32,000 nucleotides of DNA, taken from assembly GCA_030149205.1 (NCBI GenBank), contig JASBSB010000001.1, positions 90,001-122,000 of the forward strand, read 5' to 3'. Below the pieces are notes generated by a model. That model saw only the letters and a program-made list of their open reading frames with translations. It made no database searches and had not been told where the DNA came from. Shown here piece by piece: positions 21,593 to 21,769 of the stretch (the first letter of the stretch is position 1; each line of letters starts with the position of its first letter). The DNA is from Candidatus Heimdallarchaeota archaeon (GTDB taxonomy: Archaea > Asgardarchaeota > Heimdallarchaeia > Heimdallarchaeales > Kariarchaeaceae). The translations under genes were made by a program, and so were the position numbers.

Positions 21593-21769
21593 TTATACGT
21601 CTTTAGCCATTAAGGTTTTTCTGTCATTTGATTGAGCTCTCTTAATAGCGTCATCGAGAACAGCCTTTAGAGCTGATTCAATTTGCTCAAGTGAGTCTCC
21701 ACCAGTGTTTAAACCGGCGTCCTTAATGTATTTGCGAACTTTGGATTGTACGAGTAATTCTACTGCCAT
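21593..21769 (-). CDS. Histone-fold protein with short alpha3 (Bd0055/face-to-face-like histone), 58 aa
   Basis: MAVELLVQSKVRKYIKDAGLNTGGDSLEQIESALKAVLDDAIKRAQSNDRKTLMAKDV has the histone L2 motif RKT-x4-D at the extreme C-terminus. ATG 21769 is preceded by AGGTGA. Confidence 0.88.
   Translation of the reverse strand: MAVELLVQSKVRKYIKDAGLNTGGDSLEQIESALKAVLDDAIKRAQSNDRKTLMAKDV

What the first reader, a model, noticed from the sequence alone, without database searches (positions are those of the whole stretch)
21593..21769. Non-nucleosomal short-alpha3 histone resembling Bdellovibrio Bd0055 and face-to-face histones
Seen: a 58-aa protein with LLVQSKVRKYIK at the start that ends one residue after RKTLMAKD, so alpha3 is truncated and the HMf-type four-helix-bundle tetramer interface is absent. 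It has its own SD and a BRE-TATA-like promoter. Established: Bd0055 (as recalled: MAEVLVVTSKVKKLIK...RKTVMARD) and face-to-face histones bind DNA without forming canonical hypernucleosomes. Inference: this Asgard lineage has a second, probably abundant chromatin mode alongside any nucleosomal histones. The ORF track hides it behind an 11-aa false extension.
Basis: partly seen in the sequence, partly recalled or inferred. Interest (0 to 1): 0.72.

Follow-up and report, generated by a model that had tools for sequence, protein, structure and literature searches.

The report
Face-to-face histone of a Heimdall archaeon
This small gene encodes a short "face-to-face" histone, a DNA-packaging protein expected to form a closed four-subunit ring that DNA wraps around; it is real and well conserved, but the family and its role as the only histone type in this Asgard group are already published.

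Summary
Window 21593-21769 (-) encodes a 58-aa protein that starts MAVELLVQSK and ends RKTLMAKDV. The 11-codon TTG extension is not real, because orthologues start at the ATG.

It is an alpha3-truncated histone. The evidence places it in the face-to-face (FtF) class rather than the Bd0055/HBb dimer class:
- The best solved relatives are HLp, then HTkC or HBb. HMf histones score about 40 bits lower.
- The FtF tetramer residues R44 and N48, which HBb lacks, are invariant.
- A four-copy model puts 43-44, 47-48 and 56-57 at the dimer-dimer contact.

The SD and a BRE/TATA block are conserved in congeners.

The genome is 93.5% complete and probably Kariarchaeaceae. I found no nucleosomal histone, Alba, HU or MC1. 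I found only this gene and a lysine-tailed FtF paralogue on another contig. So this is not a second chromatin mode beside nucleosomal histones; it looks like the only histone type.

Across 83 Heimdallarchaeia genomes this FtF family and canonical histones are almost mutually exclusive.

Both points are already published: Heimdallarchaeota LC2 and the Kariarchaeaceae MAG KowaHeim1 are described as having FtF histones and lacking nucleosomal ones. The scan had also noted the tailed paralogue (e1-5423209).

Verdict: a new member of a known kind, of low interest.

The parts
21593..21769 (-). Coding sequence of the 58-aa face-to-face (alpha3-truncated) histone, stop codon included
   Evidence: translation, PDB relatives HLp/HTkC/HBb, 57-aa orthologues, purifying selection
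21774..21779 (-). Shine-Dalgarno-like GGTGAT, 4 nt before the ATG
   Evidence: sequence; a GGAGG/GGTGA-type motif at the same place in the orthologous loci
21844..21860 (-). BRE-like CGAAAC plus TATA-like TTTAAAAA promoter block
   Evidence: conserved in four genomes of the genus while the flanks are diverged. Its function as a promoter is inferred, not measured.
21819..21829 (-). Second conserved upstream block ATTATATGTTC, about 26 nt downstream of the TATA start; likely the transcription start region
   Evidence: phylogenetic footprint; the role is inferred from the usual archaeal TATA-to-start distance (own knowledge)
21770..21802 (-). In-frame TTG extension of the mechanical ORF; 5' UTR, not coding
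   Evidence: the extension is absent or closed by stops in orthologues, and the SD lies inside it

Best explanation
The gene encodes a face-to-face (FtF) member of the alpha3-truncated histone family.

Proposed mechanism:
- Two chains form a histone-fold handshake dimer.
- Two dimers close face to face into a ring-shaped tetramer. The contacts come from the end of alpha2, loop 2 and the C-terminus: R44, S47 and N48 of one chain against R50 and residues 56-58, including the terminal carboxylate, of the other.
- Both dimer-dimer faces are used inside the ring, so it cannot grow into a hypernucleosome.
- About 60 bp of DNA wraps around the ring without sequence specificity. The contacts would come from Q8-S9-K10, R12 and K16 (alpha1), T22/G24 (loop 1) and K51/T52 (loop 2).

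The gene is a single transcription unit with its own BRE/TATA promoter and an SD. In this genome no nucleosomal histone, Alba, HU or MC1 was found. It is therefore probably the main chromatin protein, possibly together with a lysine-tailed FtF paralogue.

Shown here: gene, start, conservation, family, signature residues, predicted interface, and the lack of detectable other histones.
Inferred from HLp and HTkC experiments: tetramer in solution, DNA wrapping, abundance.
For: Family:
- phmmer against PDB gives HLp (9QT0) 5.6e-10, HTkC (9F2C) 2.2e-7 and HBb (8FVX/8CMP) 4e-6.
- The profile of 17 relatives gives HLp 58.9, HBb 53.6 and HTkC 49.3 bits against HMfA 19.6 and HMfB 17.2.
- Foldseek on the AF2 model ranks HLp, then HTkC, then HBb, then H4.

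FtF signature:
- R44, N48, R50 and T52 are invariant and D57 is nearly invariant. Their spacing is that of R41/N45/R47/T49/D54 of the H. volcanii FtF histone (PMC11390915).
- HBb has S and D at the R44 and N48 positions.
- HTkC R45A, the equivalent of R44, turns the tetramer into a dimer (10.64898/2025.12.06.692711).

Four-copy model:
- ipSAE is 0.90 against a best of 0.00 in 3 controls.
- The mark was reached by 20 of 30 proteins solved as pairs of one chain and 1 of 23 solved as single chains.
- The runs agree in 100% of contacts and the partner's pLDDT is at least 92.
- Contacts to the second dimer are at 43-44, 47-48 and 56-57. These are the positions of the HLp tetramer contacts R49, S52, N53, T61 and F63 (10.1101/2025.05.08.652872).

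DNA contacts: all HLp DNA-contact residues map onto invariant or nearly invariant residues here.

Genome: there are only two alpha3 histones and no canonical one, and no Alba, HU or MC1.

Literature: LC2 and KowaHeim1 have FtF histones and lack nucleosomal ones, and the FtF histones are abundant in the KowaHeim1 metaproteome (10.64898/2025.12.06.692711; 10.64898/2026.07.02.735847).
Against: - No experiment was done on this protein or its close orthologues.
- The four-copy model may pass from memory of the solved HTkC and HLp tetramers. It also used my own alignment and four copies, which differs from the tool's calibration.
- By sequence score alone HBb, a dimer, is as close as HTkC.
- Net charge is only about +0.5 per chain (pI 8.0), so DNA affinity could be modest.
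- Expression level in this organism is unknown.
- The genome is 93.5% complete, so a missed nucleosomal histone cannot be excluded.
- HTkC has E, not N, at the N48 position, so N48 is not a universal FtF feature.
Confidence: 0.85

Rival explanations
1. It works like Bd0055/HBb: a stable homodimer that bends DNA, HU-like, and does not form a ring tetramer.
For: The profile score to HBb (53.6 bits) is close to that for HLp and above that for HTkC. The length, alpha1 lysines and RKTxMA(K/R)D ending are the same. Per the preprint, FtF histones become HBb-like benders when one arginine is lost (HTkC R45A).
Against: R44 and N48, which define the FtF interface and are missing from bacterial dimers (PMC11390915), are invariant in all 17 aligned relatives. 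The four-copy model places them at a confident dimer-dimer contact (0.90 against a best control of 0.00, with the caveats given there). Orthologues from LC2 are classed as FtF in the literature.
Confidence: 0.07
2. Its main working form is a mixed particle with the lysine-tailed FtF paralogue (G000 C2:409961-410131). The tail-less chain supplies the ring scaffold and the tailed chain supplies DNA-binding or modifiable tails.
For: Both paralogues share the interface residues R, N, RKT and D. The tailed class co-occurs with the tail-less class in 7 of 12 genomes of the family. The tail-less chain is nearly neutral and the tailed one is strongly basic (pI 9.8).
Against: The three other genomes of the genus (82-89% complete) show only the tail-less gene, so it must be able to work alone. 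The two genes are on different contigs and are not co-transcribed.
Confidence: 0.15
3. It is a histone-fold adaptor with a non-chromatin role, for example a transcription-factor subunit, rather than a general DNA-packaging protein.
For: The matches to Pfam PF00808 and NCBIfam archaea_histone are below their cut-offs. Net charge is low. Relatives contain larger proteins with C-terminal histone folds.
Against: All DNA-contact positions of HLp are conserved. The gene is universal in the family (11/11 plus own). No other nucleoid protein was found. Alpha3 histones are reported as abundant in a related MAG (10.64898/2026.07.02.735847).
Confidence: 0.03

Closest known systems
HLp, FtF histone of Leptospira perolatii (PDB 9QT0-9QT2; Hu et al., Nat Commun 2025, PMC12701072)
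   Same: It is the best sequence and fold match. The alpha3 helix is a single turn. The tetramer residues R49, S52, N53 and R55 correspond to R44, S47, N48 and R50. The DNA-contact residues are conserved. HLp is a tetramer that wraps about 60 bp.
   Different: HLp is bacterial and has a short basic N-terminal tail. Identity is about 44% over the fold. This protein is tail-less and less basic.
HTkC, FtF histone of Thermococcus kodakarensis (PDB 9F2C; PMC11390915; 10.64898/2025.12.06.692711)
   Same: It is an archaeal, tail-less chain of about 58 aa. The KRAQ..RKT segment is shared. R45 (R44 here) is required for the ring tetramer.
   Different: HTkC coexists with the nucleosomal histones HTkA and HTkB, whereas no nucleosomal histone was found here. 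HTkC has E where this protein has N48, and its loop 1 is 2 residues longer.
FtF histones of Heimdallarchaeota LC2 (HeimC2_30810) and of the Kariarchaeaceae MAG KowaHeim1
   Same: The LC2 protein (P0045) is a 57-aa orthologue at 64% identity. Both lineages are published as having FtF histones and lacking nucleosomal ones, and the FtF histones are abundant in the KowaHeim1 metaproteome.
   Different: They come from a different genus. Neither protein has been studied biochemically.
Bd0055/HBb, bacterial dimer histone of Bdellovibrio bacteriovorus (PDB 8FVX, 8CMP)
   Same: Both belong to the alpha3-truncated family.
   Different: HBb has S and D at the R44 and N48 positions, is a dimer, and bends DNA or forms filaments rather than wrapping it around a ring.
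HMfA/HMfB nucleosomal archaeal histones (PDB 1B67, 1A7W, 5T5K)
   Same: Both have the histone fold and the RxTxxxxD motif. The dimer-dimer contact lies at the same place on the dimer.
   Different: HMf histones have a full 10-residue alpha3 and a longer alpha2, and they polymerise openly into hypernucleosomes. The profile scores them about 40 bits lower.

Membership tests
alpha3-truncated histones (Schwab et al. 2024) | Histone fold whose alpha3 is only 3-4 residues and whose alpha2 is 4-5 residues shorter than in nucleosomal histones | tested here: met
   The AF2 model has alpha1 at 2-18, alpha2 at 24-47 and a terminal turn at 55-57, and the protein ends 1 residue after RKTLMAKD. The fold matches HLp, HTkC and HBb.
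alpha3-truncated histones (Schwab et al. 2024) | Sequence relatedness to solved members, clearly above that to nucleosomal histones | tested here: met
   Profile scores are 49-59 bits for HLp, HBb and HTkC against 17-20 bits for HMfA and HMfB.
Face-to-face (FtF) histones | Conserved tetramerisation residues (HMM R48 and N52) plus the RxTxxxxD motif | tested here: met
   R44, N48, R50, T52 and D57 have the same spacing. Four are invariant and D57 is nearly invariant in 17 relatives.
Face-to-face (FtF) histones | Confidently predicted closed tetramer of two dimers (the published criterion for the class) | tested here: met
   ipSAE 0.90 against a best control of 0.00, with contacts to the other dimer at 43-44, 47-48 and 56-57. 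Caveats: the pass may come from memory of 9F2C and 9QT0, only one chain's contacts are reported, and closure of the ring on the other side is inferred by symmetry.
Face-to-face (FtF) histones | Tetramer in solution and DNA wrapping of about 60 bp | not testable with these tools
   This needs SEC-MALS, TPM, MNase and circularisation assays. It has been shown only for HLp and HTkC.
Bacterial dimer histones (HBb/Bd0055 type) | Lack of the R48 and N52 interface residues; no confident oligomer above the dimer; exclusive to bacteria | tested here: not met
   R44 and N48 are present and invariant, a tetramer contact is predicted, and the host is an Asgard archaeon.
Nucleosomal archaeal histones (HMf type; Pfam PF00808, NCBIfam NF043032) | Score above the curated family cut-off and a full alpha3 that forms the open four-helix-bundle interface | tested here: not met
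   PF00808 gives 13.2 bits against a cut-off of 21.4. NF043032 gives 16.7 against a cut-off of 50. Only the alpha2-L2 part matches.

The most novel reading that the evidence does not exclude
In Kariarchaeaceae, chromatin is built only from FtF rings. The tail-less histone found here co-assembles with the conserved lysine/alanine-tailed FtF paralogue into mixed tetramers. That would give a tail-bearing, possibly modifiable chromatin particle on a non-nucleosomal scaffold, so histone tails would have arisen independently of the nucleosome in a close relative of the eukaryotic stem.
Probability: 0.15. Interest if true: 0.6.

Novelty: new member of a known kind. Interest (0 to 1): 0.22.

Why it matters
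The gene is a clean, correctly delimited example of the FtF histone in a near-complete Heimdall-group genome. Standard Pfam and NCBIfam cut-offs miss it, and ORF callers over-extend it.

The wider point is how Asgard chromatin varies. The relatives nearest to eukaryotes (the Hodarchaeales-type family) carry many nucleosomal histones. The sister families searched here carry FtF histones and almost never canonical ones. That pattern bears on when nucleosome-based chromatin became fixed on the eukaryotic stem, but it is already stated in the literature for LC2 and KowaHeim1. My counts only extend it to more genomes.

Tried and rejected
- RNA evidence: the search of public runs listed no RNA holder for window 20600-22900, so I did not lay reads. 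This says nothing about expression.
- Pfam and NCBIfam give only sub-threshold histone matches. They are not usable for classification.
- The sigma-70 promoter and intrinsic-terminator scan found nothing meaningful for an archaeal gene and no terminator.
- Rfam gives one sub-threshold hit, COG3860 RNA, at 20779-20831 inside a membrane-protein ORF, which I take as chance. There are no tRNAs in the window.
- No inverted repeats flank the gene, so nothing explains its different orientation relative to neighbours in congeners.
- I rejected the TTG start at 21802.
- The best own-genome hit of my nucleosomal-histone HMM was a 35-aa ORF fragment at E 0.022. I did not examine it further and took it as noise.
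- PF00808 hits above the cut-off in the family are not standalone nucleosomal histones. G007 is the tailed FtF paralogue. G006 and G016 (sister family) are long proteins with a C-terminal histone fold. G004 is a fragment at a contig end whose composition differs from its host genome, so it is possibly contamination.
- I left out a codon-bias proxy for expression as too noisy for 58 codons.

Full report
**The gene**

Window 21593-21769 on the minus strand translates to a 58-aa protein that begins MAVELLVQSKVRKYIK and ends RKTLMAKDV, followed by TAA. The mechanical ORF runs 11 codons further up to a TTG at 21802.

The ATG is the true start:
- Nearly all of the 56 database relatives are 57 aa and begin MVELLVQSK.
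- In 13 orthologous loci the residues before the ATG are unconserved, and in several the open frame begins only 2-6 codons upstream.
- A GGAGG/GGTGA-type Shine-Dalgarno motif lies a few nt before the ATG. Here it is GGTGAT at 21779-21774.

Against 10 orthologues, synonymous sites are saturated (pS 0.62-0.89) while non-synonymous differences stay at 0.14-0.32. This is a real gene under purifying selection.

**Promoter and transcription unit**

I aligned the upstream region with the three other genomes of the genus. The region is diverged except for two blocks:
- CACGAAAC-TTTAAA.., own 21860-21844. This is a BRE-like purine-rich element followed by a TATA-like box.
- ATTAT(A/T)TGTTC, own 21829-21819, about 26 nt further down. 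That is where an archaeal transcript would be expected to start (distance rule from my own knowledge).

This gives a leader of roughly 55 nt carrying the SD.

The upstream neighbour is a gelsolin-like gene. It is the neighbour in at least five genomes, but in the congeners it lies in the opposite orientation. That also argues that the histone gene is its own transcription unit. I found no RNA data to confirm this.

**Family**

- Pfam PF00808 and NCBIfam archaea_histone match only the alpha2-L2 part, below their cut-offs.
- Against solved structures the picture is clear. phmmer finds HLp of Leptospira perolatii (5.6e-10), HTkC of Thermococcus kodakarensis (2.2e-7) and Bd0055/HBb (4e-6).
- A profile of 17 relatives gives 58.9, 53.6 and 49.3 bits for HLp, HBb and HTkC, against 19.6 and 17.2 for HMfA and HMfB.
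- The AF2 monomer (mean pLDDT 71) has alpha1 at 2-18, alpha2 at 24-47 and a three-residue terminal turn. Foldseek ranks HLp, HTkC, HBb and then eukaryotic H4.

So it belongs to the alpha3-truncated histones of Schwab et al. 2024 (PMC11390915), not to the nucleosomal family.

**FtF class or bacterial-dimer class**

The published difference is the dimer-dimer interface. FtF histones conserve an arginine and an asparagine (HMM R48 and N52) in addition to RxTxxxxD, and bacterial dimers lack both (PMC11390915).

- Here R44, N48, R50 and T52 are invariant and D57 is nearly invariant across the 17 aligned relatives, with exactly that spacing.
- HBb has S and D at the first two positions.
- In HTkC the equivalent R45 bridges to the C-terminal carboxylate of the other dimer, and R45A turns the tetramer into an HBb-like dimer (10.64898/2025.12.06.692711).
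- In HLp the tetramer contacts are R49, S52 and N53 against R55, T61 and F63. By the alignment these correspond to R44, S47 and N48 against R50, K56 and V58.

I also ran a four-copy model:
- It scored ipSAE 0.90 against a best of 0.00 in 3 controls.
- The mark was reached by 20 of 30 proteins solved as pairs of one chain and 1 of 23 solved as single chains.
- The runs agree in 100% of contacts and the partner's pLDDT is at least 92.
- It shows a handshake dimer plus contacts to a second dimer at residues 43-44, 47-48 and 56-57, the same positions as in HLp.

This pass may come from memory of the solved HTkC and HLp rings, and four copies with my own alignment differ from the tool's calibration. 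It shows likeness, not binding.

The HLp DNA contacts are A13-S14-K15, K17, K21, T27, G29, T56 and T57. They map onto Q8-S9-K10, R12, K16, T22, G24, K51 and T52, all invariant or nearly so.

**Mechanism**

Handshake dimers close into a ring tetramer. About 60 bp of DNA wraps around it, and the ring cannot extend into a hypernucleosome. This mechanism is inferred from these correspondences and from the HLp and HTkC experiments.

**Organism and genomic setting**

- Named relatives come from Candidatus Kariarchaeaceae, Heimdallarchaeota LC_2 and 'Asgard group' MAGs.
- The neighbours are Asgard-typical: two Ras-family GTPases, a gelsolin-like protein and a Glu/Gln-tRNA synthetase.
- The genome has 3.31 Mb in 12 contigs and is 93.5% complete.
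- It has exactly two alpha3 histones: this one, and a 67-aa paralogue on contig C2 (409961-410131). The paralogue has the same interface residues and an MAKKKAKAPTE tail, and its pI is 9.8 against 8.0 for this protein.
- No canonical histone was found with PF00808, NF043032 or my own HMM built from 20 Heimdallarchaeia nucleosomal histones.
- No Alba, HU or MC1 was found.

FtF looks like the only histone type here.

**Distribution in the class**

In 83 genomes of the class (counts without G000) the two kinds of histone are nearly complementary:

| Family | alpha3 profile | PF00808 above cut-off |
|---|---|---|
| f1 | 11/11 | 2/11 |
| f2 | 31/31 | 3/31 |
| f4 | 3/3 | 1/3 |
| f3 | 0/1 | 1/1 |
| f5 | 0/22 | 22/22 (up to 12 matches per genome) |
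| f6 | 0/2 | 2/2 |
| f7 | 0/12 | 12/12 |

- The two f1 exceptions are a long protein with a C-terminal histone fold and a fragment at a contig end whose composition differs from its host genome. The f4 one is a 347-aa protein with a C-terminal histone fold. I did not examine the three f2 exceptions.
- My profile is specific to this subfamily, so more distant FtF histones in f5-f7 could be missed.
- A tree of 35 sequences (58 columns, weakly resolved) separates a tail-less 'GLNTGGD' clade with 100/99 support. That clade contains this protein, one copy from every f1 genome sampled, and f4. The rest holds the tailed f1 paralogues and the f2 forms.

**What is already known**

- FtF histones were defined and shown to be widespread in archaea in 2024 (PMC11390915).
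- A Heimdallarchaeum FtF histone appears in the HLp paper's alignment.
- The HTkC preprint states that Heimdallarchaeota LC2 encodes FtF histones but lacks nucleosomal ones. The LC2 protein is a 64%-identical orthologue (P0045).
- A July 2026 preprint reports that the Kariarchaeaceae MAG KowaHeim1 lacks canonical histones and has abundant alpha3-truncated histones by metaproteomics.
- HTkC also gives a 30-bp MNase ladder.

**Verdict**

The gene is a new member of a known kind.

Not in the papers I read are the clean family-level complementarity and the conserved lysine-tailed FtF paralogue class. The first is incremental. The second lies outside this window and had already been noted by the scan (e1-5423209).

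Noticed in passing
G000 C2:409961-410131 (+), locus L001:1396-1599: A second FtF histone of 67 aa has a lysine/alanine N-terminal tail (MAKKKAKAPTE...) and a pI of 9.8. Tailed orthologues with 10-22 residue tails occur in 7 of 12 genomes of the family, and some occur in the sister family f2. Published work says archaeal FtF histones generally lack tails.
   Followed up: partly
83 genomes of the class: This FtF family and canonical PF00808 histones are nearly mutually exclusive. FtF is in 45/45 genomes of f1, f2 and f4 and in 0/37 of f3, f5, f6 and f7. Canonical histones are in 37/37 of the latter and in 6/45 of the former, and the exceptions I examined are not standalone histones.
   Followed up: partly
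window 18116-18640 (-), 22237-22860 (-), 23043-23564 (+): Two Ras-family small GTPases and a gelsolin-repeat protein (sub-threshold, E 4e-4) flank the histone gene. The gelsolin-like and Ras genes are its neighbours in several genera of the family, but in the three congeners they lie in the opposite orientation. No inverted repeats explain this.
   Followed up: partly
G000 whole genome: No Alba, HU or MC1 homologue was found in a 93.5% complete genome. The two FtF histones are the only recognisable nucleoid proteins among those I searched.
   Followed up: partly
L004 (G016:C121) and L006 (G006:C166): Relatives encode long proteins, in open frames of 347 aa and at least 564 aa, that end in a histone-fold domain with a full-length alpha3. 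They are not histones in the usual sense, and their function is unknown.
   Followed up: no
P0058-P0061, P0063, P0070: Among the closest 50%-cluster representatives are alpha3-histone doublets, with two folds in one chain of 117-162 aa. One 268-aa protein has a cysteine-rich N-terminus before two folds (ZZ-histone-like). Their source organisms were not shown.
   Followed up: no
window 21279-21545 (+) and 20552-21217 (-): Two predicted membrane proteins of 88 and 221 aa without a Pfam family lie directly downstream of the histone gene. The 88-aa gene is convergent with the histone gene, with only 47 nt between the two stop codons.
   Followed up: no
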